Shown in pieces: positions 11,116 through 52,200 of a DNA stretch of 64,000 nucleotides; within the stretch, counting starts at the first letter, position 1; the number at the start of each line of letters is the position of its first letter. Location of the stretch: the NCBI RefSeq assembly GCF_964204645.1, contig NC_134026.1:23098150-23162149 (forward strand). The letters are read 5' to 3'. The DNA comes from Tubulanus polymorphus (Eukaryota; Animalia; Nemertea). Under the pieces are notes generated by a model. The model saw nothing but the letters and a program-made list of their open reading frames with translations, was not told the origin of the DNA and did not search any database. A program made the position numbers and the translations under genes.

Positions 11116-11223
11116 GACAGAATATATGGCCAGACATTCACGAATAACGCCTCAATTGGGCCACAATTTATGGAGCCGGTTGAACAAGCAGCTCTTCGCG
11201 CACGGTTTAGGTCGTCTAATGGA

Positions 11224-13022: not shown

Positions 13023-13212
13023 ATGCAACTGCAGCATCCGCGTCATCAGTACAGCAGTACAGACGCCTTTCGTTTCGGAGAGACCATGGATTATAAAATG
13101 TACGACCCGGTTTACGAATATAAGCAACTTCATGTCGACCTTAGGGAGTTACAGATGCCCCTATGCATCTTACAGCTTGATCCAGCTGATAGAGCAGTAC
13201 TGAGAATTGCTG
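13023..13212 (+). CDS. MACF1: Spectraplakin alternative first exon A (ends [12 protein letters not shown])
   Basis: Conserved plakin N-terminal motif DPA(D/E)RAV(L/I)RIA; phase-1 donor G|GTAAGT. Confidence 0.9.
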
Positions 13213-16200: not shown

Positions 16201-19200
16201 GAAGCGCTGTAAGAACAGACCTGCATTTGACACCATCTGTCCATTTATTTACTGATCATAGACATGTCTATGCAGTTATTAATTGCTATAGCTTTGGGCA
16301 TTAACCCTTTCACTTCTAGACCCTCTAGTTGACACATTATCAGACAAATCCAATATGTTTATATCTTGTGGTTTAGAAACATAAACCCAGTACGAACTAG
16401 GTTGTCATATTATACCAATTTAGCCTCTATAGCGCATTTGTTCTGTTATCTATAATTCATCTCCCATCAACTGGTAAGAAAGGGGCAAACTGTGGGTAAA
16501 GCAAAGTATAAATCTTAAGGATATGTGTTAGGGGATGAAACTCTACTTTATTGTTATTCACTATTAAGAACCATGACTACTGCATTTTGGGAAGAAAATT
16601 CATCGATACAAGATTACGGCAGTCACTAATATGGACAGGGTGAATGAAATGCCTTTTAGGAGATAATTGTGATAATATTGAATGCTGTATTTGTTTATTT
16701 GTTTGTAGATGAAAGAGATGCTGTCCAAAAGAAAACCTTTACCAAATGGGTGAACAAACATTTAAAGAAGGTGAGTTTGCTTAACAGTCTGCATTCGTTC
16801 TTTGGACATGGAAAATGGTATTTAGCTAGGTTTTTGTATCACCTTGAAGACATTCTATTGTTAGATCATCTCAACCTGTCAACTATTGAATATTGAATAT
16901 GTAGGAGAGTGGTAACTGGTAAAAATCCCCCCCCCCGATAAATATGCCCCTGGTAAAATCCCCCCATATTCTCGATACTATCAAACTAGAGTATAAAAAC
17001 TAGATTTAAAAGAATATTAGGAATACATAAGTACATAGATATTTGCTTCACTTTTAAAATAAAGGCCGATTTATCTTTTTTAAAGAAGTGACCGCTAGGA
17101 ATGGTCAATTTCTATAAAGACCAGGGGGATTTTTACTGAGGGAATTTTTACCTGGGGGGATTTTTACCTTGCGAGATTTTTACCGGGGGGGATTTTTACC
17201 TTTATTCTAGGAAAGTATATCTAGCTGAATACTGTTTACGAATTAATCCTGTCTTTGCTATTCTCTCTTTCTTGCCCGTCATGTAATAAAGATTTACATA
17301 CGCAATAAAAAGAAAACCTGACTTCTATAGTCACGAGGAATTGTTGAATTTGAAAACTAGCATTCTTAGAAACTAACCAATGACTTGTGCAAACATGAAA
17401 ATCAGACCTTTCAAATAGAAATTGAATTTCTCGTACAAAATATCTCATCGAATTCAAAATTGAAATCCATTTATCATTATCTAAATTACATCGCCGTGTG
17501 GTTTTTATTCACGTTGCAATTTGAGCGCTGAACATAAAATCTTTCAGTAGAATGGCGTCTCCGTAGTTCTGTCACAGTCAAAGAAAAGAATGTTTGGCTA
17601 TACATTCAAATCATTAATACATGTCGTGAAGATATATATTCTCATTCACGCATTTACATTTCGGGATGAGGTCCCGTTTCTTTGTTTCCTGAAAGGAGAC
17701 ATTGTCCATAGAATATCCAGGGTTTTCGTTCTTCGTGCTGATATTGTGCTGATATTTTGCGCGGTAAGAAAGAAACAAACAAGACCAGTTCTGTTGTATA
17801 AGGTAGTCTAAATTTGATTCTCGAATGAGTCGGTTCAATGATAAAAAAGGTCAGACAAGAATTTGTCCATTTAAAGTTTTTAACCCTTATATTTCTGTAC
17901 TTCTTTTTCTCTCGTCGTTGTATATAAATACATGTATACCTGTTTTGATATAAGTCCTACATATATACATATGATTTGGGCTTTATTACCAACTTACTTC
18001 GCTTTCACATTTGAATTTCCCGATACTGAATAGGTACATAGTTATATCGAAAAATGTATCGATGAAATAGGATGGATGATGAATAAGTAATTGCTGATCA
18101 ATACGTTTCTAATTACTGGATTAAGTGTTTGTTTTTTGATCAAGTATTTTAACCCCTCTCCCCTTTCGTACTGTATGAAAATATTTTAATGGTAGATCTA
18201 TGATTCCAATACCCCTGTATGACCACAGACGTCTAGTTTATACGGCCATGGTGTGGCTGCATAGAAAGTCTCTGATCGAACTCCTATTTGCTGTTTGTAT
18301 TGGATAGATTACCATTAGTTTTGACTCTTCATCTGATATCCCCAATGATGTCATCGTATTGACATTGATCTATCTTCATTTTTCGAGCGGAAGAGCTTCA
18401 GCTTCGATGCTGCATACATGTTCAACTCACTGAGATAACAGGCCCATTAAGTTTCTCAGTCATCAGATTTATGAGCGTCTCATGCTGATGATGACTGAGG
18501 GTGAAAGTCACTCGATGGTACTTCTTATGTCTGCCAGACTGACCCCAGAAATGGAGAATAAGCACTTTCTCAGTTTTCATTCTTTAGAATCAATTTGTGT
18601 ATACATTTATGTGGAACTCTTCAATATTCTTAAAAATCCAGTTAAAAGTCGGTTGCTGCTCAAATTCAACAAAAGAAATTCTGGTTAACTCTAAAATGAC
18701 CTTGAGGTTTTATCACCTGAAGGAGTGTTTCTTTAAGAGCCACACACAGCATATTTCTGCAGGTGTATAATCATCTATTCTAGCTTCACCTGTGCATCTG
18801 AGTGGCTGAACCCACATATATCGCATTAGGCTTTGTTAGAAAAATCTGAAAGATCTTTTGGAATCCTAGTTAATATTAGTTTTGAAGTGGATGAATGACT
18901 CATGAATTGGGGGTAATGAAAGATATCATTATCTTACTTTCACTTTCGATATTTTTTCCTTTGACGCACTTCTGTTACCCCTAGGTGCTGTTCGAAACCG
19001 TCTCGGAATGTTAGACATTCAACCTGTATACAGATCATGAATACCGAAACAAAAAATCTTAAAACTTGTTGACATTTCTACAAAATGATATCAACATTTT
19101 TCGCCTATGACTCATTTTGAATAAGAGCTTGTTTATTCTAGTTATTTCGTAATTTTCTACGTTTTGAATCTCAATTTTCACCATTTTTGAGTATTTCACA

Positions 19201-22200
19201 GTAATTCAGTTACGAAGCAATATGTATGCTGTGTATTCCCAAAATACGCTACAATCGATATACATCGGTCAGCCACGTAATGTCTCTGTGGTAATGCAGT
19301 ATAATCATTTTTTGCATTTATCGGACTATAATGTTTAGCTGTAAGGAAAGGGGAGCTCGATGCGTTCATGTGTATAGAATACAGCCATGTTTTATCAAAC
19401 CAATCATTTCTGCATCAGATACAATGTATCCCTCATTTGATTTCTTATCCACCCATGATATCGATGGAATTTTGGTTAGTATTTGCTGCGGCGTTGATAA
19501 GGAATCTCGGGGTCTTGTATAACCATTGAGGAATCTGTAAAGGATTGAAATCATTTGGAGCCATCTTTCTGGGTTAATCCATAACTGAACTCCTGGTAAC
19601 GTTTCATGAAAGCTAACCAACGGGCCCTTCCTTGACTTTTAAAACAACCCGAACATGACTTTAATGCCATTTGGAAATTTGATATTGGTCTCAATTCTTT
19701 TATAGAATGCACTGACTTATTGTGACTCTTGATATATTTCCTGATTTAACTACTCAGGGTTATGATTTATAGGCATAAACAAACAAATTCACTTACATGA
19801 AATTCTTTTTAGCTGAATAGAACTACATATATATTTTGTCGGGTTGATGGTGCCTTTTCATATTGCCGTAAATGGTTACTATAGTCGACAGCTGTGATCC
19901 ACAATTTAAATGGAAATCTTTGAGCTTAATATTTAGGGACCAGTTTCAATGTAACCTGATTGACAATGAGTATAGAATGTTGATTTTATTGAAAAAGATG
20001 GTTTTTGCTGCTGTATATACCCCTACATATAGTACCTGACTATTTTTCAACCCAGTTTATTACCTAATTATGTAAGCTATAAGTATCGAGGTAAATATTT
20101 GTTCAAGCAATACATTTTGAAGTCCCTGAGTGTTTTGAGTAATAGCTAAGACTGTTAAAGTACTGAAAACACAACCAGTAGCTCATGACCTGTAAGCACC
20201 TAAAACTTAAATCCTTACGTCAAGCGATTAGCTTTGATATTTCAATATTTATCTCGATATCTTCTATGCATATTTGGCGAATTTGTTTTCATGAGTTGGT
20301 GACCGCACAATAAAATGTGTTCAAATGTGTGATATACAAAGCACGCTGGAAGCTTATGTGCACAGTCACAGATGACACACAATATGCACTACTGAAATAT
20401 AAACAGCTGTTCCTTATATGTAGATTTACTATGCCTGGATCACGAAGCCCCTCCCCGGCCCTCCCACATATAGATATAGTACTGTGAGGGGCGGGGTCGA
20501 ACCCAACCGGACCCAAACATGTATAAAATGTCTAAAATGTCGAATCGTAAATCACATGCTATTTATAATTAAAGATCGGTATCACAAAAGAAATCTCAAT
20601 GTGGTTTTCAACGCAATTTGTTAAGATTGATAGAGGCTTTGAAAAACAAGTCTGTGCCATATTGAGAATAGCATTGTCAATTGAACTGTAGGATATATTT
20701 TATTTCGTTTAGACGATTGAAGAGTTTCTTTTGTCGAATAATGATATTTATTCTGAAAGGCCTTTTCAATATCAGTACAAAGTTCTATTATGAAAATAGC
20801 CTACTTGAAATAACAATCTAGGGGATTTTCTGTCCTGACATGCGTTGGGAATAATCAGTTTTTGTCAAGCTACGTGCATGATTGATTATTATGTTAGATT
20901 TTAAAAAGCTGGACTTTTTGGTGACTCATTTAGATAATTTAAACATTTGGGGCCAGTAATTCTTAGGTTCTTAAACTTGTTGCGGTATTATATCCTTATG
21001 AAGGTGTGGGCACTGCAAAATGAAAGAATGGAACTGATCCCAACCAGCTTACCAACTCGGCCAGTCCATCAAAGCCAAAGAAAATTATCACGCAATAACC
21101 TCTAGAATAAATTCCAACTAATGTCATTATTCAATACGGATTGTTGGCTAGACATCAATAAATTGACATTTATGACTTGGCAACAGGTAAGTCTCCTCTG
21201 ACTCCACACACAACCTGGTTTATCAGATATCGCAGCGTATGATGTATCAGCTGTACGATTTGAGTTATAAAGTATACGTTACACCTTATTCTATTCCAAA
21301 TCAAATCATGATGTTTGGTGAACTACTGATACTTAGCCGGCATGCAAATACTCGACTTTTTAGAAGTTACGACGCTCTGTTGTTATAACAACCATTGAAC
21401 TATTTATCCAGGTTTACTGCCTTTTTGAAGCCACTATATTTCATTAGATTTGATCGATTTAAATGGACTGAGGTCTCTATATACGGTGCAGGGTTTAAAC
21501 ATATGGTGTCCGCCCGTGCGGCTCATTCAATGAAATGTGATAAGTTCACAGTACTGAAAACTACAATTAAACATCTGAGTACACTCCATTGAAGCTGAGT
21601 AGAATGTATATAATATAATATTGAGAAATAAATACTTTCTTTTCAAATGCAATATGAATGTTAATTTGACTCCTTTTATGGTATAATCAGGTCGGGTAAA
21701 ATAATCACGTCGTCCTCATAAAACTATAACTACAAATTATAACACATCATATGACATTATGTAATGACCCTTGTTGGATAATTACCTAGTCCAGACAATT
21801 ACTGTGTTTAATTTATTAAGTAGCGTTTTAACTGTATATTATACATTATATATTCATATAGTGATCAGCTAAGTTCTTAGTACATGGTATTTGGCATATT
21901 TGACTATTTGACTGGCAAACTGCTACATTAGACCTATGTATCCACCACATCTGAGTGTGACGTTTTGGTTCCAGTCCGGTGGACATATGTGTGCTGTATA
22001 ATATATATGATACATTTTGCCTGATTCCCAGTAATATATTCACCAATAGATTTGTGAACAGGTGTGAACTGATATTTAGAAGGGACATATGTGCCGATAC
22101 AGAGTATGGAAAACACTATTTACCTGACATATTTCATTTCACTGATGAAATGTTTTTTTGCCATAAGAACATAATTTTGTTTCAACTCCCGATATATGAA

Positions 22201-25200
22201 AAAGATATTGCAATTATTGGAATGATGTTTCGAGAATCATGTGGTATATACTCGGAACACAGGTACCAGATTAACCCTAATCATGACTTGAGGATATGAC
22301 AATTTTGTCCAGTTGTTTGGCCACAATGATACTCATATCTAAAGTTCTTGATTGGAAGCAAGGGTTAATCAATACTGAGTTTAATGATTGTCATTTAATC
22401 ATAAAATGATTTTGCAACTGAAGATCTAGTCCGGTCTGAACCAGTTAAAACTTACACACCATATTTCTAAGAATATAGAAAAGTCTGTATTCAAGCATAT
22501 CGTTCAGAGAGAAGTGAAAATGTCAAAGTTGAGGTCATCTTCAGGGCCCCCTCTGAGTTCCCATGTCTAGCTTAAGTAGCTGGTATATAGAAAAAGGACA
22601 AATGATTTCAAAGGGTCTTCAATTTGTCATGCACTAATTTTATGAATGAAATGATGTTTCGGCCAACTAATGTAGTTCATGGTCTTTGTCCATAATTAGT
22701 TAAAATATTTGCCTGAGCAGGTGAACAGAGAAGTCTTCAGAGTGTGGTACATGATTACCTTTACATTCAGCTGAGTTCATTCCACGTAAAAGTAGGGCTC
22801 CTTGTCCTAATTGTGGTTAGTCCTCGTCATTCAATTTGAAGTAATTTTTTGGAATTGAATTGGTCGCATAAAACGTATATTCATGATAATTCATTGCTCT
22901 ATTATAGGGGAACTTCTGGGGTCATGTCAATTGTAATCTATACAGTTGGTATTATTTTTGGTTTTCAAATGGCTGCTCTTCGGTTTATTTCCAAAGTCTT
23001 GGATGGAAGTTATGCGTCAGAAAAGTTTTTTCATTCTGGTATCTCTAAGCAGGTACTAGCAGAATTAAGGATCAATATCTAGTGATTGATGATATAAGCT
23101 TCGTTGGGATTGGTTTGTGGATATGTATCTCAAAGCCAACCGATCAAACCAACCAGTGATGCGTGCCATGGCACATACTTTGCCAGACGTAATAAATTAC
23201 TTGCCCTGTATATACACCATGTAGAGGGTAATATAATTATAGCTAATGATGACATAATTTGTTTTAATCACAGACACAAAAATTCTGATAAATTGTTTTG
23301 GATTCCGTCTCTTACTTCCCCGCTCTATATGCACTAATAGAAACAGGATTCTCCCCAAAAATGCGAGGATGCCATCATTGCTATCATCACAATGTCGAGG
23401 ATGCAACATAATAACATATTGGTTTGAATTTATCCCGAAACTTTAAGGCATTTTCCAAGAATGTGTTCTTTTCATGTCATTTATGATATGCTGCTCTTAA
23501 TATTCGGCTAAGAGATATCAAAATCTTTATAAGAAGTTAAATATTTATGGTTAGATATAGAGCATTATGGGTGCATCGTATTCATGTATGCAGGAACTGA
23601 ACCACAAGTTCTATAGCTACTACATGAAGTAATGTTTTCAACACTGCTCGGCATATAATATTTATTGGACATTTGTAATGTTTTTATTGTTTGTGCAAGT
23701 TTTATGACATCTAATGATCTATAACACGTGCGATGGGGTTTGTCACACTGAATGGTATAGCGTCACAAATGATTACCACAATCTTAATAATGCATTACAT
23801 GAATTATTGAACCGGGTTTCTTGAAGAAAATTATCTAATTGACTCTTATGCGAATGATAATGATTTTATTTCTATTATGCAGCATTGGATTTATCAAAGG
23901 GTTTGTAAAAATGCACTTTATCCACCACCCTTCTTTCCCTTTCCCTTTACATGTCCTAACTGCATGCCTTCCGTTTGAAACCATTGGCATTCATTACTTG
24001 TTATTTAGCATATGACCTTTCAATATTATCAAATGATTTCCATTTAATCATTAAATACCCTTTTCTTGGACTTTGATTTTGAGTGCGTGTCTCTATTTTA
24101 CAGCGTTATGACATTGATTTTCTTTATGAACATCCACTCGATATGATGTATATATTGATATTGTATTCCTTTCATCAGATGCATAAAATACTGATGATTA
24201 TTAACAGATGCTTTTTGGTTGATTTTTGGATATTTTTCAGTGTTTTATTTTTTTTGCATGAGTGTCCTTCACCCTTGTTGAAATGAATGTTATCAATATC
24301 TGATTGTTAATATCTTCAAATTTCCTTTAATGATCAAATCAACATGATAAGTATTTAGGCTACCTGTTATTGTGCTGAATCATTTAGGTTATAAATTTAC
24401 GAAACATCTGACATATTCATGAAGAAAAAAGTATAGAATGATGAATTTATGAAACTGAAAATGATCAATCCTACATTAATTCTGGTTTTGGAAATTGAAA
24501 CTGTGATTCTGGGATCCCATGCTTTTCACCAGCTTTTCATAATGGAGATTCCAAAATACATTTTTATATCAGAATATATGTTTGCATGATAGTTGTCAAG
24601 CTGTTGCTTCATGATTCTGAAATTTATCAGTGTAATTTTTGTGTTCGACATATAATATAGTCAGGGATTTTGTTATGCAATGAATGTTAATAGATATCTA
24701 GGGACCAGATTAAATTGTCTCATGGTTGCTTGCCGGTTTGTTCGTAGTTCATGTTTATATCGTATGGTGGCAGCAGTTTCTATGTCATCCCGTTTAACCT
24801 TGTCTTTAGAGGACTGATTAAGTGTAATTATCAAACGTGGTTTGAAGTATTGGGTCACTGTATAAAAAAGCCTAGTCCTCTTTTGATGTTATGTAGTAAA
24901 TAATCGGCCCAATTTATTTTGGTGTAAACCTACTGAAATATTTTCCAAGAATAGAAAGCCAGGGAAATTCATCATAATGCATGTGAATGATACAATATGT
25001 AATTCTTTTGGTCTTTCCTTTTCTACTGATGATTCTTAATGAAGAAATTAATTTCGAGACATGTTTTTATATGAAATATTTCTGTGATCAAGCACATGGA
25101 ATCAAAAGTTATCTACATGTATGCTGGTATTATGTTTTCTAGGTGAAACTTGAAATCAAAGAGCTATATGAAGATTTACGTGATGGCAACGGTCTTTTGT

Positions 25201-28200
25201 CTCTGCTTGAGGTGTTATCTGGAGAAACATTGGTAAGCAACCTCCAGGGCCGTCGGAACAGGGGCGGCCAAAGCCGCCCCACTTTTTTGCTTAACAAAAT
25301 TTTTTTCAAAAGCACGCTGTACCCCGTAGCAGCTCGTCGTTCTCTGTACTAGGTGGTTGGCTCATGACTCATGCTTCTGTGAATGAGACCGTGAAATGGC
25401 CCCAAAACGCATCTCTGGCGATTGAATTTTCAAAATTTTTCTAGGGGAGGGCCCCAGACCACCCTTCAGAAATAAGCCTCGCCACTGAAAAATTCCTTCT
25501 GATGGCTCTGACCTCAACAGCATAACTAAAAGAGTGTACTAATAAGAAATAAACGTAATTTTAGGTGAAATTTCTACTGATTCTTCTATTCATCGAAGTA
25601 GAATTATTATCTATATTCAATGAGTTCATAAATTGCCTGGTTTTAATGAATTACGATTTATGTTTTTCAGCCGAGAGAACGAGGGCATATGCGTTTCCAC
25701 AGGTTACAGAATGTTCAAATAGTACTGGATTTTCTACGCTATCGAGGGGTTTGTATATGAAATTACCTTCAACTTTCTGTTTAAGATTTCAATCTTCATC
25801 TTCAACTTTCTGTTCAAGATATTATTGATTATACGCTCAAATTCGAAATGGAGGACCGGCACACAAGCTATCCCGTCAGATAGTGCCACTGAGATATCAG
25901 ACGCACTCGATGAAAATTAGTTCATTTTCAAGTAACTTTGATCTCAATTTTCTTCCAATCCAAAAATTGGGCAAATCACGCATCAGAATAAACTCTAATT
26001 AGTCTTTTCATATGTCATGCATAGAATTTGAGAAATTATTGTTAGATTTTAATTGAGTTAGAGAAGAAATCCAGCATCGATGTCATATTGTACATTGGCG
26101 GATTATGGTGGAATTCTGCTTACCACAGAAGCATTGCCGGTCCCCCGTTAGGCTCAGTGGATTTTGATGTGGCGCTCACGCCATCAGACAGTGGTGCCCT
26201 CTTCAGTTACTATAGATGACTAGATATTGATTTAGATATGAATTTTACAAGATAAGTGTATTATACAGAGGGGTGTGTGTTACTGTTGGCAAGAAGTTGA
26301 AATCTGAAAAAAGACATGACTTTTGTTTACGCAGTATGAAGACAATTTAGGTTATACTGTCATTGGCAAAACCAGTAATTGTTCCGCATATAGCTATTTC
26401 TCTCTGACAGGGCTATAATGTCAATTTCAAATGCTATATATATACCCAGATAATCTTTTGTTTTGTTCATAGTATGTGCTATGTTTTGTAGTCAATAGCT
26501 CATAAATGATATCTCCGTCATTCGGGAATTTTAATCAGGATTTAAGATTTTCTTTCATTACATGTATAGGCCTATAGGTAAGGGCATAAAATATATTATT
26601 GCATCAAAGATTTCATGACATGTCACCATTAATAGAATGTGCATGTTCCGTTTTCATCTATGTATCGATGAATTGACTATGATTTATGTATTGATCCGAG
26701 AAGACTAGTTAAGTCTTCATGAATTTTTGTACAAACCCTGATATGAAATGAGTTTCATAAACATCTTAAGACAAGTTCTTTACTTAGTTTATGGCTTCAT
26801 ATTTTTCAGATCAAGATTGTGAACATTCGCGCTGATGAAATTGTTGATGGCAATCCAAAACTTACTCTTGGCTTGATATGGACTATCATCTTACATTTCC
26901 AGGTAAAATATACACTTTTTCCTTTAAGCAATCTCTTTGTATGTTAGATTATACATTTCATTCAAACTATGTTTATTATTCGAAAATACCAAGGATTGCA
27001 GATCTTTTTATGAGGAACTTATGGGAACTATCTGTTGTTGATAATTGATGTGTTCTGCTAGTGCCCAGTAGGAAATCTTCAATAATTCACGTGTTTTTCT
27101 ACCTATGTGCCTTCATATGTGACTTTCTTGTAATCAAACAATGATATACATCATAGTCATCGATTGTATCGTGTGAATTAATTATGCTCATTACCACTCT
27201 CATTTATAGCAGTCATATCTATATACATAACAATCACTTGGATACATGCTTGATTCTTGTTTAACAGTCTATAAGTTTTATCAGGAGTAGTAGTGTCTTA
27301 TGTTTATTGCATACAAAATTGTTTGTTTTTTGCTGCGGTTTATGAATCTGCGGTGGATACTGCTAAGCGTTGAAGGAGTCTACAGCCAATATTTGATTTG
27401 TTAAAAGCCTCGATTCTGCTACAGTGCAGTTATCAAACTCATTTTTACTGACTTCAAGATCTAAGCATATTATGGTTTCATACACCAGTTGTGATCGTTA
27501 ATGACAGATAAGCATTTTGAATGGGTGATCGCTGACATTAATTCATGTTCATGAAACTTCGCCGAAAAGAGTAATTTTACATTTATGTATGGAAAATATT
27601 ATTGACCTGACTTAATACCAATGTCATTTTATGTGAAACTGTTCTGGAGGAAAAGTACTTCAATTTTACCGACATACCTACTTATTTGTGCTTGAAATGA
27701 TATCAATGCTGTCGTATTTGAATAATTCATGGTAGTATTTGTAGAAATGCCGATTCTGCGGTACTTTTTATGTTCCAGTCAAATTGCTCGATGTAGGCCT
27801 ATTTGGACCCTCCTGGATTTTCTGTGATATATTGTCCTCGTTTGTAGGAAGTTTTTACTTCGCCTGGACTAGTGTATTGGTACTTTTTTGCTCTCGAATA
27901 ATTGCGAAATTATTTGCGTATAAATGACTACTTGACGATTGGCAATTTTTACATGAGCTCTGTACTGGATTTTGATGTGGGCTAATGGTCGCTTCCCCTG
28001 AGTCGTCGATTGTACGAAATATTCCACAATGCCGCGACGAGTTATTCAAAATTTGCTGCAGAGTTGTCATCGATCTCCTCGTACTTTGAGTCCAACAAGA
28101 TCGTCGACCGACGCTCTGGGTCGCGTGTCTGACAGACCCAACAAACAAGTACGATTTCATCCAGCTACATCGGCGGTGGCTCTATCTTCTTCCCATGAAG

Positions 28201-31200
28201 ATGAAGAAGAGGCTGAAATACGACAAGGGCTCTGTTGCAATCGATGCGTAAAAACAAAAACTAAGACTACAAGCTCATCCCAATATGAGGTAAGAATGGT
28301 GATACGATGATTCTGAGATTGAAATTTTTGAAATGATCGCCTCAACGAGAGGCATATAGAGATACATCAAGTAGTATTTACAATTATATATCACAACATC
28401 AAACAAAGAATTAAAATAATATTTGACTAAAACAACAACTATACACTGATTATATGTTATGTACAAAGAAAATACCATAGATTGTTATGTACAGTTACCT
28501 CTGAAATTACAGAAAAATCTATGTATTTATACAAGAGCCCGGAATGATAAATAAATGCGTTTCGAATCATTGGGGTTGTTAAGCCGAATTATAGTTTTAC
28601 AAAATATTCCTAATTTCCTAGGGTAGTTGTACGAACTGAATAGGGTTCCATGTATGTTCCAAACTAGTTTTCTAATGAGTCAAGCTTGTGTCGCCATCTG
28701 TGATAATCTGTTAACGTTATTATACATGTAGTATATAATACATTGTTATACATACAAACTAGGTCAAATAGAAATGTGTTCTTTATAGGCAAATTTAGAC
28801 ATCCTTGCAATTTTTGCTGGAATCTGTATTTGAATTTGTCATATTTTGCAAATAATATACTTATATATAAGTGTTATTTCAATTCAGTGGGAATTTATGA
28901 TGCTGGTATGGTTCTGGATATGAAAACAGCGCAATTAACATCTTCAGCATACAAAATCAATCTTGACAGATTCATATCGCTACCTGAAATTATGAATATG
29001 ATTAATAAACCAAAATCTGCCGCGATGATCTGTTGATTCAGTGTGTTTTATGGGCTGCATTGTCTTTATATGAAGCAGCACCTGGTGTGGGCCCTAGAAC
29101 AGCCTGCCTTTGTGTGATCTAGCAAGATCGATAAAATTACACAATTGATTCGGCGTGTCTCCTTATGTGAAAAACTCATCGTTTTTGAAAACTACAACAT
29201 TTTCAGTGTTATTCACGTTGCTTGGAAAGGGACAACACATTCCGATATCAGTTTACTCTGCCTAGTTTGAAATCTATATCTCTGGACACTTCAGTTTAGT
29301 TTTTGGCATCGAATTTTCCGATGATCGTGCAACAGATGCCGCGAAGCATGTATTTTGTTGTGACGAAACTTGAATGGAGATATACATTTGTAAAGCTCGC
29401 AGTCGCGTTATCTTCGGGAATAAATGAGTCAGAGGACAAGGAGCTAGCTTTTGAAGGAACCTCGAATGTGTTACTGTGTAAACAATTGATCAGATAAGAA
29501 AGTGTTAATTGATGACCAGAATGGACCGGTCCTATTACTATATCTTGCAAGTGCTATGCTGTCGCATATTTGTCGAAATCACTGTTTCTAACTGAGTAGA
29601 ATCTGAATCTGGAAGTAACATGGATGTATGTATTTGCAGTTGATTGTATTGGTACATACATTTAGATAATTAGGTGTATATACGAAAACAAAAACTGTGT
29701 CACCGTGTGATAGCCGATGATTTGGTATAAAAAAGAAAAGCATAGTAGTTACACAGACAAGGAAATGAGTGGAAGTTTGCATGAGCTACTGAATCATATA
29801 TAGAAATATTGATGTGGATACATTGATACATGATTTGAGTTCAAATTCGCTGTTTTTTCATCTCTTGTGAGAAGTGAAAGGATTTTTTCGACTGGATACA
29901 TCTTTATTGCGGCAGTTTTAGGAAAAAACATCTATTAGAAATAGTTACGTGGCTGACTTTGAGCAGGTTGTTCCAGTAGTAAGAAGTACCGCGTAAGCCT
30001 ATAGATAACATACGTATGTATTGCCTATTACCAGGGATAGCAGTGTCAGAGTCTTATTCCTACATTAGTTTAAAGTTGAATGTTATTTGTTTGAAGAATG
30101 TCTCATATTTATATTAACTGATTATGTATCTTGCCAATTGATTGCAAAATTATTATCTGGCTGACGCTGTTGAATAAAACCATATTTTGATACAGGTGAA
30201 CTAATTCAGTATGAATCATCAAAATTATCCGCTCTCCTAAAAGCCTGATTAAATAGATGAATTCGTTGACTGAAAATCGTAGTATGTATTCAATATAGTC
30301 TGGCTTACATTTGGCCCATCCATATTACCTGCTACGTGTTGTACTTTATTGATACTCTTAAACATTAGATAATGATTTTATTTGATAAAAAATAATGGCG
30401 ATCTGAAAGAATAACGCATGTGCGTAACATATACCTAGTGACAATAATAATATATTGGGGTGTTTTTGATTTAGAATGACTAAGTATTATTATTGGTAAT
30501 AATCATATTCAAGTTGAACAGCTGGTGTACAGCACTGGCCTGGCGCATGCATGGTGTAGGCAACAGCGTAGCTTATATATAGGCTTATCGTTGATTTTAT
30601 GTTATAGATACGGTGCGTGCCGTCCTCGGCTCTATATAAGCCGAGCTTTCGTCGATCAATTTTTTCATTTTTTGATCGGGTACAACTGCGCGACAATCGG
30701 AGGCAAACATTCGACGATGAAAAAGCTGTGCTGCGGGTGTGCCTGTGGCAAGCGACCGCCGCAAGATTCAAAATTAGAACCGTTCCGACCGTGGAAGAAA
30801 CGCAAATGGAAACGCAAAGACAAGGGTGACAAAAAGAAAAAGAAAAAAGGTGATAAAGAAACAGACGATAGTGAGAATGAAGAAGAAGGATTACTGAATG
30901 GATCTGGAACATTCTTGGTAAATGATGCTCACGTACATATTGAAGAAGAGGAATGTGAGCCGGATATTTGTGGAGTTACATTCTCAGCTCCAGCTTCTAG
31001 TGTAGAACTTTGTAAGGGACAAGATGATCTTGATTCGCCTACAGCAGGACAGGATGAACTGCCGGCTGTACTTTCGCAGACTAGTGTAGATGACGATTTC
31101 CAAACGGCTTGTAGCTTTAAAAGTGAAACTTATTTTTCGTGTAGTTCAGATACTAGTGATAAATATACTAACAAAGATGATCACCCTTATTCTGAGGTGA

Positions 31201-43200: not shown

Positions 43201-46200
43201 TCATCCAGATCTTGATAGGGTCAACAAAGATGTCCAACAACTTCACAAACGTTGGCAGAAAATTCATAATCAAATCGCTGATAGGTATTAATTTCAACAA
43301 GAGATTTTTAGATTGTTCAAACTACTTCTTTAACTAACGCAACTCCTCACTTTCTTTTTCCTTAGGATACGGACCTCTGAAAGTATTTCTCAATTGCTCT
43401 CTGACTACCATACAACAATGCGTGTTGAGAAGCATTGGTCATCACAGATGGAAAACAAAGTATACATGCAGCCACGTGTCAAAGATGACTTGTCTCCCAG
43501 TGAGCTACAACGTCTACTTGAATCAACTATGGTATGTACTTTAACTTTATGCACCGTAGTTTACAAACCTTTGGTGGAAAATATTTCATATGCATGTTAA
43601 TGAAATATCTTCTATTTCATGCAGAATTGTAATATGCAGCATTCACTGGATTACTATGTATTATGTTGAATCAACTTGAAATTGTTGCAAATTACAAATC
43701 TCATATGTTAAGGAAACTATGGCATGTGCATGATTGGGAAAGTTTTTAATTGATTGGGTTAAGGTTCTAAATTTAAATTTGGTATTTTAACATGAATATG
43801 ACTTAAACATGACAGTCTTAGGTTGACTATTGATAATTTGATAATTTCAACATCAAATCTGAATTACTAGCATTAACATCGTCCTTTTTCTGCTTCATAA
43901 TACTTTGGCTTTTAGAAACAAGTGAATATGCCAGAATATTCCTGTAGTGTTTTAGATTAGAGTCTCTTTTTCAGCATTACAATTAGGTACTCATCATGTT
44001 CAAGTCACTGGTTTATGGAAACCTCATTTTGTGCAGATTTTCCTTTTACTCTTTTCAATTCTTTGGCATATTACATATTTTGGAAAGTCTGCTGTAAATG
44101 AGGAGTTTGTTTTGATGTTGTATCTTATCTGTATATCTCACTGTGTGATTTGGTGTGAGTGTAACACAATTTCTTTTCTTTCTCTTTGTCATTTCCATTT
44201 AACAATACACTATAGAAACTCTACACCACACTCTACGAACAAAAGCCACAGATAGAGAAGGTCAACCACAGTGGATCAAAGTTTGTTGCTGAAGCACATG
44301 TATTTGATAATCACCTGAAGAAGTACAAAAAAGTGTTGGAAGAAGTCCACCCAGTAGATATCCAGAAATCAAAGCGTGCTCGTACTCAGTCTGGGGTTGA
44401 ACGAGTTGAGAATGAACTAGACATGCTAAACCGAACATACACCGACATGATCACTGCTACAAATGATAGGATTCGTCGTATCAAAGATCTATTAGAAAGA
44501 GCTGGCCGAACAGTTCAGGTTAGCATTGATACGTATTTGATCTATCATTGAATAAATTTAATTGAATTCCAATGCCATAATGATTTTGATAATTTTTTTT
44601 CCAGCTACCAAAACTACTCGAAGATGACATTCCACAAATAACATCTTACAGAGATCTGCTTAGTAAACGGCACCTTCCATCATCAGAAAGTGAAGAAGGC
44701 ATGGATTTTTCTGACCATGATAGTCTAATCAGTCCATTATCACCGAGACGCGATCCACTGATTGATTCAACAATTGGCGAAGTGTCTGAACCATTACAGC
44801 ATTCTCCAACAAAGACAGAAGCCCCAGCTTATGATAGTTTACGACGTAAACAACCTGGTCGTTCGGAGCATTATTCACTCTCGATGAATACAGAAGGAAA
44901 TATATCAGGAATGCAGACAATTGAAAGTAGATCCGCTTTCAGCTCAGTATCTTCAACAGTTACAAGACCAATTGCACCACCTGACTATTCCAGTGTTGCT
45001 AGCATTTCTCAAACATCTGACTTCTTGCGGCGGGCTGATGCAAGACCTCCGATCTCCACAACAGACAACCGTTTATCGGCAAGGTCTGCTGTACAAACGG
45101 TTGTTACATCAAAACATGAAAAGCTCAAGTATTCCACTAGCCCTATTGATCATGCTGGAATTACTGATTTTCAAAAAGGTAAAGCGATGAATCTGAAACA
45201 AGCGCTCCAAAATGGCTTTTTGGATCTACAAAATGAACGCTTTATGGATCCAAATACTGGAAAATACATTCCTTTGTCTGAAGCTGTTCAGAAAGGATAC
45301 ATTGATGATCAACTTGTAAAAGAGCTTAATCGTGATATTGGACTAAAAGATCCGAATACTGGACAGACTTTATCATTGCTAGAAGCAATACAGAAGGGAT
45401 TGTATAATCCAGTGAGTGAATGTGTGACTGACCCAAGAACTGGCAAAACATTATCAGTGCAGGATGCTGCTAGACGAGGCTTAATTTCTCAGGATGCCGC
45501 ATCACGCCTTTCACCACCTGTAACCACAACATCTTCAACGACAGAATCACGTGCCTATTATGGTCTTCCTGATATTCAGTCAGCTGTTCCTAGTGGATTT
45601 GGTATCAGTGAGGTTATTGAAAAGGGTTTGTATGATGAGGCAACTGGAAAATTTATCGATCCTATCACCCATGAAAAACTTACGCTTGGTGAGGCTATCG
45701 ATCGTGGCTTGATAGATCCAAATAGTCGTGAAATTTATAATCCTCTTACTAATCAACGGATAACAATAGCTGATGGTATTGCTCAAGGTATAATTGACTC
45801 CGACACTGGCCAGTTCATTGATAGGCGTCAAAACCGCAGAATGAGCTTGTTCGATGCTTTAAAAGAAAAGAACATAGATAAACCAGCTAGTTTACATGAC
45901 GCATTAACAGAGGGATTGATTGATGAAAAAGGCAAAATTACAGAAGCCCGAAGTGCCCAAAAATACTCTTTACAGGAGGCTATAAGTAATGGTCTCCTTG
46001 ATATTGATACTAAATGCATCATTGATTCAAGATCGGGAGAAGTTCTTTCTCTTGCTGAAGCTGTTGACCGTGGACTTATTGATGGTTCTGGACAATTTGT
46101 GGATTCTAGATCTGGCCGAAGGGTATCATTACAACAAGCAGTCAGTGAAGGTAAAATGAAAGTTGTGAAGCGAGATATTTGCTTTGCCCAGACTGGTATT

Positions 46201-49200
46201 CATGACCCTTCAACTGGTGATCGTCTAAGTCTTCCTGAAGCCATCCAGCGTGGAGTCATTGATCCTAACACTGGTATTTATTGTGATCGGAAGACTGGTG
46301 AAAAAATAAAGATGGATGAAGCAATGAAACGGGGCTACATTGATGCAAATTTAGGTGGAAAACTGCTGAGCGATTCTGGTTTACATGACACTCGTGGACA
46401 ACCGGTATCAGTCATTGGTGCTATAACAAAAGGTTACCTTGATCCTGAAACCGGAAGAATCTCGGACCCAGAAACTGGCCGTGCAATGACATTGCAAGAT
46501 GCAGCTTCACTGAACTATATTAGTAGTGAAAAAGCTCAAATGATGATGGAAGTAACCAGTCCCATGATGGCAACTACAACAATAACTAGTAAAGTAGAAC
46601 CAGCTGAAAGGGCATTAGAAATAGGTACCGTAGATATTCATGGATCGCAAACATCAAAAGCACATGCACCAAACACTCTCACATTCCCGGAAGCTCAGAA
46701 ACTTGGACTAATCGATTCACGTTCAGGCACATTCCTAGATACCAAAAGTGGTACATTATTACCTGTTGAAAAGGCCATCAGCCAAGGCCTAGTCACACCA
46801 GAATGGGTAGGAAAACCTAGAATGGAAGACCATCCTGAAGAAATGCAACCTCCACCATCATTCCGTCATGTGAAACCAGGTGAAAGAGTTACAGTAGAAC
46901 GGAAACTTTCTGAAAGTCAACAAATAACACTTGCCCATGCCATAGACCAAGGTCTTTTAAGTCAAACAACTGGTTTTTATCGAGATCCAAATACTGGTGT
47001 TAGAATGCCCCTTGAACAAGCTATTTCTCGTGGATTAATCAATCCAGAATCTGCTTCATTCACTGATCCACAAACTGGCGATACAGTTGACCTCCAGGAA
47101 GCAATTGAGAGAGGACTGCTAGGAGCAACTGGACAAGTTCCATCTCCCGATAGAGCTACGCGGACTTCACTCAAGGAAGCTCTGGAGACAGGAGTTCTTA
47201 AGACATATGCACCCGGAGAAGGTCCATCACTACGCAAACCACCACCAGTACCACTAAAGCCAACTCGCACGGTTATATTTGAACAAAAACATCTTGATGT
47301 TCAAGCATATAGAGATCCAGCAACAGGTAAAGAGTTAACTGTTGAGGAAGCTGAATCTAAGGGTCTTATTGATACAAAATCAGGCACTTGTGTGGATCCA
47401 CACACTGGTGAAACAATTCCAATAAGTGAAGGAGTAAGAAGAGGTTTAATTAAGGCACAAGAGGTCTCTTCTGTATCAAAAGTAGCCACAGTTAATGAAT
47501 CGAAAGCCTTTACCATCACTGGTGCTATTGATCCCCAAACTGGTGAAGAGTTGAATGTTAGTGAAGCTGTGAAGGCAGGAATAATTGACCAAAAATCAGG
47601 CTCATATGTCACCCATGATAGTCTTGGTAAAAAGGTACATATACCTTTAGAGGAAGCAATAAGGCAGGAATTAGTCATCACAAAAGTTGCCCCAGAACCG
47701 CCTACAGAAGGCGAAACAAAGACACTGAAAATTGAATCTGTGATAGATCCAAAAAGTGGTCAAGAACTATCCATCAATGAGGCAATAAACCGTGGTATTA
47801 TTGATCACAAAACTGGATCCTACATTGATCAGAATACGGGAAAGAAAATTCCGATATCAGAGGCCGTGAGTAAAGGGTTAGTAAAAGGTGAAGTAACAAC
47901 TCCTAAACCACTTCCAAAAGGGGTTTTATCACAGAGTGAAATAAAGGTTATTGCTAAATCTGTTATAGATCCTAAAACAGGAAATGAAGTTCCAATTTCT
48001 GAGGCAGTTGCCAAAGGTTGGATCGATGCAACTACAGGGGTTTACACTAACCCTATCTCAGGGGAACAGATGGCTTTGAAAGAAGCAATTGACAAAGGCC
48101 TTGTTAAATCATCTGAAAGCAGTGATGGACTGACAAAAACATTAAGTATCAAGACTGTAGTTGACCCAAAAACTGGGTATGATGTTAACATAACTGATGC
48201 GATCAAGAAAGGAATCATTGATCCAAAATCTGGCACATATAATGATACAGTTAGTGGGGAAAGTATACCTATATCTGACGCTGTAAGTAAAGGGATTGTG
48301 AAAGCAGAATTTGCGGCTCCTAAACCTCTACCTCCCGGCGTTTCATCGGAAAGTGATTTGACTGCTTCAAAAGAAGTGAAATTAGCTGTCAAGTCAGTCA
48401 TTGATCCACGGTCTGGAAATGAAATTCCTGTTGATGATGCAATTGCTGAAGGTCTCGTTGACCTGACATCTGGACTTTTTATCAATCCGTCGAGTGGAGA
48501 GCGTTTACGACTTACAGAAGCTATCGATCGAGGATTTGTGAAAACACATCCCGTCGCGGACACAATGGAAAGTGCAGGCCGCAAGGCAATCACCAGCATC
48601 CACATTGAAGATGATGAAATTCCATTTAGTGAAATCAAGGAAGAAGATATGTCTGAAGAAACTCGTAAATTTGACATAACAGGTGTCATTGATCCGACTA
48701 CAATGAAAATAGTTTCTCTTGATGAGGCAGTTCAGTTGGGAATTGTTGATCAAGAAAGAGGAATATACCGAAATCCTACTACTGGCCAAACCTTACCAAT
48801 ATCTGAAGCATTACAGAATGGTCTTATTCATGGGGAATTGACGAGCCAAAAAATGGAACAGGCGAAGGTACGTAGCGTATTCGAAGCTAGTCCAAGCATA
48901 AGATCGTCAACAAAGGAAACAGATTTCCATCAAGAATATCAAACATCTAATGACCCATCAGTTGAAATCATAAAATCACCACCACCCTCAGAGCGCCACC
49001 GTACTGGTAGTATTCACTTTGACTCAGACAGACCATTGATCAAAACTGAAGAAGCTTTCAAAGAAGAAAGTAGTGAGTTGAAGATTTCTGAGGTAACAGA
49101 TCCTCGAACAGGGATAAAAATTGATTTTGAAACAGCTGTAGATGAAGGCATCATTGATCAAGAGCGAGGCCTCTTTTTGAATCCAGTGACTGGTGAAGAA

Positions 49201-52200
49201 GTTCCCATTTCAGTTGCAATGAACAAAGGCTTTATCGACGCCCAAGTGACATTGACTGGAGTTGAAGAAAGTGTAGTTGTAAGCAATGGTTCAGATGCAA
49301 GACTTGCTCCTGATCATCCTGACTTGACACCTCCAGATCAAGGAACCAATCAGAAGGATTCTGATGCTGCATTGCTTGCTGAACCTCATTTTGACAAGCG
49401 ACCTGCAGTTGATCAGGAACACCCAAATGTCATTTCTTTTGAACAAGCAATGCAACTGGGATTAGTTGATACTGACGCCGGATTGTTCCGTGATCCCTCG
49501 ACTGGGAAATCAATCCCATTAGCACAAGCCATTTCTCAAGGTTTACTTGATGTTAAAGCCCCTGCCTTGACTGATCTGAATACTGGGGACACATTTTCAC
49601 TTCAAGATGCCATTCATAAGAAGCTCATTGATCCAAAATCAGGGAAGTTGAATCAGTTTAGGGCTCAATCAATGAATTTAAACATTGCTGATGAGTTCAA
49701 GCCAGGATCAGCTGAGCAGAAAGCCATGAATGTTGAGGATGCTGTCAAATGTAACTTATTAGATCCCATTTCTGGTAAATTCACTGATCCTCAATCTGGT
49801 AGAATTATGGATCTTAAAGATGCAGTAGACCAAGGTTTCATTGACGGTAAATCAGTTGTCATTGAGGATCCAACAAGTGGAAATAAGATGTTCTTGGATG
49901 AGGCCATTGATCAAGGAGTAATTGATGGGACAACTGGACTGTTCCTAGATGAGAAGGGACAACCAATGTTTACACTTGCAGATGCCATGGCATCAGATAT
50001 GGTTGAAAGCACGTTTGACCCTAGCACTGGATTTATTGTTGACAGAAAGTCTGGGAACAAAATTTCATTGGAAGAAGCTATTACGGACAAAGATAAGGTT
50101 GGTGATCAAGTTAAAGTCTATGACACTAAAACAGGACGTCAAATACCCTTAAATGAAGCTGAAAAGAAAGGAATCATAGATAGCGGGCAGTATGTTGACA
50201 AGACAACTGGAAAAACAATGTCAATCGGTAAAGCTGCTGGGCTTGGGTTACTGGCTGTAGTTGGAGCACCGGTACTTTTACCTGCCATGGCAGGAAAGCT
50301 CATATATGATAAAGTCAAAGAAGTAAAAGAGAAGAAAAAAGAGCCTGCTGTAAATGAAAAGCCTCGTGTAGCAAATGGTGATGAAAAATTTGTACTTGAT
50401 CCATTTGAAGTTAAACAATCGCTGCATTCAGAACCAGTTGAGCAGAAAAACGAAACTGATTTCCTACAGAGTAATATTGAGGAAACTGTCTATACAAACC
50501 AGTCCTGGCAAACAACCAAAACAATGGAGATAGATGTAATTCCAGCATCTGCTGCAATATCAGCAACTAGGCCAGGATTTGACAAGGCCAGACAAAGCAG
50601 TGTTGAAAGTGAAGCAGCTCCTAAAGTTGCAAAAATTGATGTTCTCGACAGTCATAAACAAGATATACAGAAAATGGAACTTGAGGGTCATCAAACACCC
50701 ATCTCCCTCCAAGAAGCTATGGATAGCGGTTTGGTAGATTCAGGTTCTGGAACATTTACCGATCCTGTGACTGGAGAAGTGATGTCATTAAAGAGTGCAC
50801 TTCAAGAAGGGCGAGTTACCGGCTTTGGGGGTAAACCTTTATCTCCAGGAAAATCTCCTAAAGATGTGAAAGATGCTTTACAGAGCTTGATTTATAAAGA
50901 TAGTAAAAAACCACTGTCTTTCACACAAGCAGTTGACCACGGATTAATAGATCTAGATGACAATTCATACACTGACCCATTGAGTGGACAAAAGATGACT
51001 GTTGCTGAGGCCATAAGAAAAAATCTAATTGATTCACAGTCAGATCTGAAAGCATTACCAGAAGAAGTCACTGGCCCAATGACATTATACGATGTACTGA
51101 GTCAAAACCTACTTGATCCTGATACAGGTATCATGATTGACCCTTACACAGGACAAAGACTTTCTATACAGGAGGCAATAGATTCTGGTGTACTAGATAA
51201 TTCATCAACTTTGTATGATACAGATTCGGGTCGTCTGATGACGTTACAAGAAGCAATTGATGCAGGTAAAATTGATGGGAAAATAGGTGAATTCATTGAT
51301 ACCAATACTGGTAACAGAATGTCGTTGCAAGATGCTATGAAGCATGGATTAATGGCTGTATTTGGTGCTCCCGTTATTGGTTCAGAAGGCACTGATGATG
51401 ACATGGAAATGAGATTCCGTAAATTGCATCCTGGGTTTGATCCTACACTCGTGCATCCTGTCAATCCAGAAAGCTCTGTAACCTTTGAAAGTGCAATTGT
51501 TTGCCAATTTCCTGAAGATGATATCCTTGAAATTACTTCAATATTTAAATATACTTCAGAGGAAGACACCATTCCCCCAAGTGGTCTACCGATTTTCAAA
51601 GCTATTAATGATGGCTTACTTGATATGATAAGTGGAAAGTACATTGACCCAAAAAGGAAACATTCATTATCACTAGAGGAGGCTATTAAGACCGGTATCC
51701 TTGATCCAGCTTCAGCAGCTTTTGTTGAACCACAGACTGGAACTAGAATTAACATTCGTGAAGCTATCGAGAAAAAACTGGTTGATCCACGTGGTTATTG
51801 TGTAGACCCCAAAACAAAGAGGAAGATTAACATGCAACAAGCTATAAAACGTGGTCTAATTAAACGTGTGAAAACCCCTGAACTACCACGCAAACGAATA
51901 ACAGTTGTCAAAGAAATCACGAGAATCAAAGTTGTATCTGTGATTGACCCAGTGTCGGGTCGAAACATATCTCTAGTAGAGGCTCTTGATGACAAGGTAA
52001 TTGACCAGTCCTCCGGATCATATGTAAACCCAAAAACTGGTGAACAGACCCCAGTTGACATTGCAGTGGAAAGGGGACTTATAAAAGGTTATGTCGTTGG
52101 TACACGTAAAGATAAAGAAGAATATGTTACTGTAGAAAAATCAAACCTTGTTGTTGAGACTAGCTCAAAAGAACTTGTACAACATGTATCCAGAGGTCAG

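What the first reader, a model, noticed from the sequence alone, without database searches (positions are those of the whole stretch)
30717..31196. CH1-less spectraplakin N-terminus combining a Cys/polybasic membrane anchor with FFAT-like motifs: a possible ER-plasma membrane-cytoskeleton tether
Seen: an ATG-initiated exon with its own TATA box that splices in phase to CH2. It encodes [13 protein letters not shown], then a very basic tract ([20 protein letters not shown]), an acidic linker, and two adjacent motifs DDDFQTACS and [10 protein letters not shown] (31089-31151). Established: N-terminal Cys clusters with polybasic tracts are typical S-palmitoylation/plasma-membrane targeting signals; vertebrate dystonin-a3/MACF1-a3 also replace CH1 with a lipidation-type N-terminus; FFAT motifs (EFFDAxE core, tolerating Y, S/T and C) bind the ER protein VAP. 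Inference: this isoform may link plasma membrane, ER and the giant plakin rod at membrane contact sites, a combination I do not know to be described for spectraplakins.
Basis: partly seen in the sequence, partly recalled or inferred. Interest (0 to 1): 0.8.

Follow-up and report, generated by a model that had tools for sequence, protein, structure and literature searches.

The report
Membrane-anchored spectraplakin start with ER hooks
An invertebrate's giant cytoskeleton-linker gene carries an extra protein-coding exon that likely starts a version lacking half of the actin-binding domain, with a predicted fat anchor and two near-ideal predicted docking motifs for the ER protein VAP, so it would likely tie the ER to the cell surface when phosphorylated; no transcript, binding or conservation has been shown yet.

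Summary
Exon 30717-31196 (160 codons) lies in the CH1-CH2 intron of a spectraplakin-type gene. It has coding-like codon use, the second-best splice donor of 318 GT sites in that intron, TATA- and Inr-like elements and promoter-level CpG, and it joins CH2 in frame. CH2-only first exons are known in all spectraplakins, and a putative lipid anchor is known for dystonin-a3.

The new part is the motif pair. These are phospho-FFATs (Thr/Ser at position 4), not conventional FFATs, and score 0.5 and 1-1.5 on the published matrix. Only 8 of 20,373 human proteins reach 0.5, none with so good a second motif. Such a pair arose in 6 of 200,000 shuffles of the acidic part.

Best reading: a palmitoyl/polybasic anchor plus a phosphorylation-switched VAP tether, like Kv2.1 (about 40%).

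Weak points: no RNA run is listed, no orthologous exon was found (the test had little power), and at least half of the top human scorers cannot reach VAP. A second CH1-less first exon (28029-28289) was also found. This scan had noted only a different, vertebrate lipid-anchor exon on other DNA.

The parts
30633..30640 (+). TATA-like box of the predicted internal promoter
   Evidence: 32-34 nt before the A of an Inr-like hexamer; CpG o/e 1.45 upstream
30665..30670 (+). Inr-like element, predicted start site near 30667
   Evidence: consensus recalled; no CAGE data
30717..31196 (+). Alternative first coding exon C2, 160 codons, phase-0 donor
30729..30746 (+). Cys cluster (Cys5, 6, 8, 10), predicted S-palmitoylation sites; no Gly2
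   Evidence: 4 or more Cys in residues 2-10 in 109 of 200,000 shuffles
30786..30857 (+). Polybasic tract with two Trp (residues 24-47), predicted acidic-lipid binding; could also act as a nuclear signal
31095..31115 (+). Phospho-FFAT core 1 (Asp127-Ser133, phospho-acceptor Thr130), score 1.0-1.5
   Evidence: matrix; scored
31128..31148 (+). Phospho-FFAT core 2 (Thr138-Ser144, phospho-acceptor Ser141), score 0.5
   Evidence: matrix; scored
32190..32356 (+). First CH2 exon, shared acceptor
   Evidence: Pfam CH E 6e-8; 75% identical to mollusc spectraplakins
28029..28289 (+).
13086..13212 (+). First exon A of the CH1+CH2 form
   Evidence: its end matches the A-type leads of P0004 and P0006
14546..14630 (+). 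First exon B of the CH1+CH2 form
16709..26902 (+). CH1 exons skipped by this isoform (16709-16770, 25143-25232, 25671-25748, 26810-26902)
44593..57555 (+). Giant plakin-repeat open frame of the same gene (a second runs from 57938 to the window end)
   Evidence: Pfam Plectin E 3e-117 on the first 1,136 residues

Best explanation
This coding exon sits between the CH1 and CH2 exons of a spectraplakin-type gene and likely starts a CH2-only isoform whose predicted-disordered head would be held at the plasma membrane by predicted palmitoylated cysteines and a lysine-rich tract, and would bind the ER protein VAP through two predicted phospho-FFAT motifs once Thr130 and Ser141 are phosphorylated. Shown by the sequence: exon, phase, motifs and their scores. 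Inferred steps: (1) an internal promoter makes the transcript; (2) losing CH1 weakens actin binding, and the lipid anchor replaces it as the cortical attachment; (3) an 80-100-residue acidic linker spans the 10-20 nm ER-membrane gap; (4) a kinase switches on VAP binding, and the two motifs may add avidity for a VAP dimer; (5) the downstream plakin domain, and whatever rod and microtubule-binding tail the transcript carries, couples the contact site to junctions or microtubules.
For: Exon statistics. Scores of 0.5 and 1-1.5 on the Table EV4 matrix of PMC7705450. In Table EV1, 8 of 20,373 human proteins reach 0.5 or better and their second motifs score 3-5.5 (part 1 of 36 read, sorted by score). 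The validated binders Kv2.1 and PTPIP51 score 1 there. Shuffles gave a pair at <=0.5 and <=1 in 0 of 200,000 (whole exon), 6 of 200,000 (acidic part) and 6 of 200,000 (local 41 residues). No window scores <=1 in the other 7,369 residues of this gene modelled here. The single-sequence model has mean pLDDT 39 and no fold, compatible with disorder (weak without an alignment). No hydrophobic signal or transmembrane stretch is evident in the translation. C-type isoforms exist in all spectraplakins, and dystonin leads carry potential myristoyl/palmitoyl sites (10.1101/122010, passages). Most tested phospho-FFAT proteins are anchored in a second membrane.
Against: No orthologous exon was found: 0 hits in 1.84 billion representatives, 0 of 341 candidates, and none upstream of CH2 in 38 metagenome loci. 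These tests had little power, because full-length spectraplakins exceed the searchable lengths and the CH1-CH2 intron was complete in only 2 of those loci. The matrix is permissive: 2,079 human proteins score below 3, and at least 4 of the top 8 (SDHA, RELN, AOC3, ADAM5; locations recalled) cannot reach VAP. The exon was picked from a very large scan partly for these motifs, so the shuffle figures overstate the odds. The one spliced CH1-less lead recovered from another animal (amphioxus, 23 residues) has neither Cys nor FFAT. Palmitoylation rests on a recalled resemblance to GAP-43-type N-termini; no predictor was run.
Confidence: 0.4

Rival explanations
1. An ordinary C-type isoform that works like dystonin-a3: the head is a lipid/polybasic membrane anchor and the FFAT-like stretch is an incidental Ser/Thr/acid-rich spacer or phospho-site cluster that does not bind VAP.
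For: Known architecture. High false-positive rate of the matrix. No conservation shown. The exon is rich in D/E/S/T/C, which raises scores; one motif at <=1 arose in 4,304 of 200,000 shuffles of the acidic part.
Against: The pair is rare even with composition fixed (6 of 200,000). The two motifs are not copies of each other at DNA level (12 of 33 bases alike), so both aromatic, S/T and A/C positions arose separately.
Confidence: 0.3
2. The phospho-FFATs are real, but the other end is not a plasma-membrane anchor. The basic tract acts as a nuclear signal or binds actin, microtubules or endomembranes, and the cysteines bind metal, so the isoform links ER or nuclear envelope to the cytoskeleton, a VAP-based parallel to the transmembrane dystonin-a2.
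For: The K/R tract fits a nuclear localisation signal equally well (general knowledge). Dystonin-a2 links the cytoskeleton to ER and nuclear envelope (PMC3352338, passages). MACF1a3 was reported at the outer nuclear envelope (PMC3352950, passage).
Against: Four Cys within the first ten residues, flanked by basic residues, is the usual layout of acylated N-termini (recalled), and the clustering is rare by chance (109 of 200,000).
Confidence: 0.17
3. The exon is not a first exon of an expressed isoform: it is silent, decaying, or an internal cassette spliced in after CH1.
For: The frame is also open for 79 codons upstream of the ATG. Synonymous codon signal is neutral.
Against: No phase-0 acceptor scoring above 0 lies in 30480-30900 (only 30583, phase 2, score 0.4, and 30608, phase 1, score 2.7). 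The coding signal begins at the ATG. TATA/Inr and CpG enrichment resemble the other three starts. An open run of 160 or more codons is expected 0.005 times in this intron.
Confidence: 0.1

Closest known systems
C-type / isoform-3 spectraplakins (Drosophila Shot C, MACF1a3, dystonin/BPAG1-a3)
   Same: An internal first exon replaces CH1 and joins CH2. BPAG1a3 has a putative lipid anchor said to aid plasma-membrane attachment.
   Different: No Gly2, so palmitoyl/polybasic rather than myristoyl. Twin phospho-FFATs. No sequence homology to those leads was shown; I could not fetch them.
Kv2.1/Kv2.2 phospho-FFAT ER-plasma membrane tethers (PMC7705450, passages; PMC10460453, passages)
   Same: Ser/Thr at position 4 and Cys at position 5 of the core; a protein anchored in the other membrane recruits VAP when phosphorylated.
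   Different: Kv2 is an integral channel with one validated motif. Here the anchor would be reversible acylation on a cytoskeletal linker, and binding is untested.
PTPIP51/RMDN3 (two FFATs, ER-mitochondria tether)
   Same: An N-terminal membrane anchor followed by two closely spaced FFAT-type motifs.
   Different: Transmembrane mitochondrial anchor; one motif is conventional.
Dystonin-a2
   Same: A spectraplakin isoform tied to ER/nuclear-envelope membranes by its lead sequence (the localisation was disputed).
   Different: It uses a transmembrane segment and keeps CH1+CH2; no VAP link in the passages read.

Membership tests
Spectraplakin gene | CH1+CH2 actin-binding domain followed by a plakin domain | tested here: met
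   58% identity over 653 residues to a bivalve protein, 52% over 788 to a hemichordate plectin-like protein; Pfam CH
Spectraplakin gene | Plakin repeat region | tested here: met
   Pfam Plectin E 3e-117
Spectraplakin gene | Spectrin rod, EF hands, GAS2-related domain | not testable with these tools
   The window ends inside the plakin repeats and no genome is held
C-type (isoform 3) spectraplakin | Own first exon in the CH1-CH2 intron, in phase with CH2 | tested here: met
   (DNA evidence only)
C-type (isoform 3) spectraplakin | Transcript joining that exon to CH2 | not testable with these tools
   No RNA holder listed
Dystonin-a3-type myristoylated lead | Gly at position 2 | tested here: not met
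   Residue 2 is Lys
Conventional FFAT | Asp/Glu at core position 4 | tested here: not met
   Thr130 and Ser141
Phospho-FFAT | F/Y at 2, S/T at 4, A/C at 5, acidic or S/T flanks; score below 3 | tested here: met
   0.5 and 1.0-1.5
Phospho-FFAT | Cytosolic, unstructured setting | tested here: inconclusive
   pLDDT 39 from a single sequence; no Pfam family above cut-off
Phospho-FFAT | Conserved across species (criterion in PMC8306308, passage) | tested here: inconclusive
   No orthologous exon reached
Phospho-FFAT | Phosphorylation-dependent binding to a VAP MSP domain | not testable with these tools
S-palmitoylated polybasic membrane anchor | N-terminal Cys cluster next to basic residues | tested here: met
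   (layout recalled from general knowledge)
S-palmitoylated polybasic membrane anchor | Actual acylation and membrane targeting | not testable with these tools
   No predictor or data available

The most novel reading that the evidence does not exclude
A spectraplakin isoform is itself a kinase-switched ER-plasma membrane tether: a palmitoyl/polybasic foot, twin phospho-FFATs that grip a VAP dimer, and a giant plakin body that fastens the contact site to junctions and microtubules. Promoter choice would decide whether the protein is an actin linker or a contact-site organiser, giving a first function for an invertebrate C-type lead sequence.
Probability: 0.35. Interest if true: 0.72.

Novelty: new variant of a known kind. 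Interest (0 to 1): 0.5.

Why it matters
A 2017 review states that no function was known for the alternative lead sequences of Drosophila Shot. Five searches of the held library found no paper joining a spectraplakin to FFAT or VAP (0 papers each; 48 papers, of which the 25 listed showed no such link by title or start of abstract). If the motifs work, this is a direct route by which a cytolinker positions ER-plasma membrane contacts, and two peptides and a GFP fusion can test it cheaply. If they do not, it is an ordinary C-type isoform of one invertebrate.

Tried and rejected
Expression: no RNA holder listed. The three runs show no spliced joint, and X3 contigs read through both splice sites. 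X2/X3 pieces often end at GATC/GANTC sites (11 of 24 ends within 20 nt against 28% at random) and carry a constant loose end, so they look like proximity-ligation DNA libraries (inference). Their depth was not used.

Homologues of the exon: none (Atlas, no usable hit; PDB, 0; only a sub-threshold compositional Pfam match).

CH2-anchored conservation test: 591 pattern matches, 298 confirmed, 80 kept, 42 spectraplakin-like by eye. Of these, 38 were scanned by tblastn and the FFAT matrix and 25 for ATG-to-donor exons. Best tblastn E for the exon was 5.5, and one unrelated-looking frame scored 2. Only L041/L042 hold the whole intron (567 nt), without such an exon.

Protein route: (best 120 of 936 listed, 98-2,000 residues only). 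Of 143 proteins examined, CH1-less ones looked like intron read-through gene calls except amphioxus isoform X5 and its five cluster mates. Full-length giant isoforms could not be searched.

Rejected: conventional FFAT; myristoylation; tandem duplication of one motif; homology between exons C1 and C2 (E 25); internal cassette. No co-fold with VAP was run because no VAP sequence was held. The Slee and Levine 2019 paper was not held, so the conventional matrix was not applied. Supplements of the bioRxiv review (its isoform figure) could not be seen and may bear on Shot C leads.

Full report
Setting. The window holds the 5' two-thirds of an animal spectraplakin-type gene on the + strand. I modelled four alternative first exons. 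A (13086-13212) and B (14546-14630) splice in phase 1 to the CH1 exons. C1 (28029-28289) and C2 (30717-31196, the finding) lie in the 5.3-kb intron between the last CH1 exon (ends 26902) and the first CH2 exon (starts 32190), and splice in phase 0. All four join the downstream exons without a stop over about 1,000 codons. The actin-binding domain is 75-78% identical to those of a bivalve and an octopus and 65-69% to deuterostome ones, which points loosely to a spiralian; no tree was built. Giant plakin-repeat frames follow. The rod and GAS2 domain lie outside the window and no genome is held.

Is the exon real? A donor matrix built from the gene's 23 other donors ranks the ends of C1 and C2 first and second among 318 GT sites in the intron (10.4 and 8.6 bits; leave-one-out median of true donors 7.3). 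A codon model trained on this gene gives C2 +0.234 bits per codon, close to a held-out exon (+0.28) and above all 344 intron windows (mean -0.28, max -0.06). The open frame before the ATG and the bases after the donor score like intron. The synonymous-only part of this score is neutral, so the signal is amino-acid composition. A stop-free run of 160 codons is expected 0.005 times in this intron. A TATA-like box at 30633, an Inr-like hexamer at 30665 and an A at -3 of the ATG fit a start near 30667 (consensus patterns recalled). CpG o/e in the 500 nt around and before each of the four starts is 1.06-1.46, against 0.50 +/- 0.21 in 24 gene-body windows, as expected for unmethylated promoters (inference); some intronic windows upstream also reach 0.9-1.1. 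No phase-0 acceptor scoring above zero precedes or enters the start of C2, so an internal cassette is unlikely. No RNA holder was listed, so the junction remains unseen. I put the isoform at about 90%.

The head. Residues 1-46 carry Cys5, 6, 8, 10 and a net charge of +15; residues 47-160 carry -24. Four Cys in residues 2-10 occurred in 109 of 200,000 shuffles. There is no Gly2, so the myristoylation proposed for dystonin-a3 (PMC3352338 and PMC3352950, passages) does not apply. S-palmitoylation with polybasic lipid binding is the likely anchor, by a resemblance to GAP-43-type N-termini that I recall and did not test. A single-sequence AlphaFold model has mean pLDDT 39 and no fold.

The motifs. 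Both have Thr or Ser at core position 4, so they belong to the phospho-FFAT class, whose six tested peptides bound VAP only when phosphorylated (PMC7705450, passages). With that paper's Table EV4 matrix, core 138-144 scores 0.5 and core 127-133 scores 1.5. The sheet's rule for positions 7-8 reproduced only 2 of 6 Table EV1 rows that I checked by hand; a looser reading reproduced 6 of 6 and gives 1.0 for the first motif. In Table EV1 (part 1 of 36 read), 8 of 20,373 human proteins score 0.5 or better and none of the 8 has a second motif under 3. Kv2.1, Kv2.2 and PTPIP51 score 1. Human dystonin, MACF1 and plectin (canonical sequences only) score 2-2.5, at sites far from the N-terminus. Composition-preserving shuffles gave an equally good pair in 0 of 200,000 (whole exon) and 6 of 200,000 (acidic part), and a single motif at 0.5 in 79 and 306 of 200,000. 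No other window among 7,369 modelled residues of the gene scores 1 or better. Against this, the matrix is permissive (2,079 human proteins under 3), at least 4 of its top 8 are lumenal, extracellular or mitochondrial-matrix proteins (locations recalled), and this exon was selected from a huge scan partly for these motifs.

Conservation, the deciding test, was not reached. The exon has no detectable relative. Anchoring on CH2 gave 80 loci, 42 spectraplakin-like, mostly short contigs whose CH1-CH2 intron is incomplete; 38 were scanned with no match. Protein searches were limited to 2,000 residues. Among 143 proteins the only convincing spliced CH1-less lead was a 23-residue amphioxus one without Cys or FFAT. 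This neither supports nor refutes the motifs.

Mechanism. Most likely (0.4): promoter C2 makes a CH2-only isoform with weak actin binding (PMC3352950, passage). Its acylated, basic foot holds the plasma membrane. An 80-100-residue acidic linker lets two phospho-FFATs reach VAP across a 10-20 nm gap (gap size from PMC8306308, passage; the reach is my estimate). Phosphorylation switches the ER link on, as for Kv2.1. Rivals: lipid anchor only, motifs incidental (0.3); VAP binding with a nuclear or other target for the basic end (0.17); no expressed first exon (0.1).

Comparison and novelty. CH2-only isoforms occur in all spectraplakins, dystonin leads have potential lipidation sites, and no function was reported for Shot leads (10.1101/122010, passages). 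For MACF1a3 the reviews read mention no lipid motif. Searches for spectraplakin+FFAT, Short stop+Vap33+ER, spectraplakin+contact sites+VAPA and FFAT motif+MACF1 each returned 0 papers. Plakin+FFAT+ER returned 48; the 25 listed looked incidental, judged from the listing only. A looser search (20 of 67 listed) showed none either. Most subscription papers are not covered. Also seen: PMC10460453 (passages) and PMC4171495 (one passage). An earlier unchecked note of this scan describes a different lipid-anchor exon of vertebrate MACF1/dystonin. Verdict: a real-looking C-type first exon, a new variant of a known kind, with an unusually strong but unproven phospho-FFAT pair. Interest 0.5.

Noticed in passing
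window 28029-28289 (+): Second CH1-less first exon (87 codons) with the best donor of the intron, a TATA-like site at 27919, CpG o/e 1.28, an internal Cys cluster followed by basic residues, and no FFAT. The gene thus has two predicted C-type starts.
   Followed up: partly
window 44593-64000 (+): Plakin-repeat region of at least 6,300 codons in two giant open frames, with near-identical tandem units at the window end.
   Followed up: no
window 10744-11151 and 4662-5027 (-): Exons that look like a nucleoredoxin/thioredoxin-like gene (label recalled from the WCAPC motif), head to head with spectraplakin exon A about 2 kb away.
   Followed up: no
window 25245-25510 and about 25870-26130: High-copy repeat elements in CH1 introns (very high summed depth and many loose ends in run X1).
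   Followed up: no
P0048, P0144-P0148: Amphioxus RefSeq plectin-like isoforms X4-X9 are short (385-400 residues), CH2-only, and end in a Cys-Cys-containing tail; possibly a truncated gene model.
   Followed up: no
P0005 and its cluster: The octopus model P0005 has a short insert between CH1 and CH2 and another inside CH1 that P0004 lacks, suggesting micro-exons in this region in molluscs.
   Followed up: no
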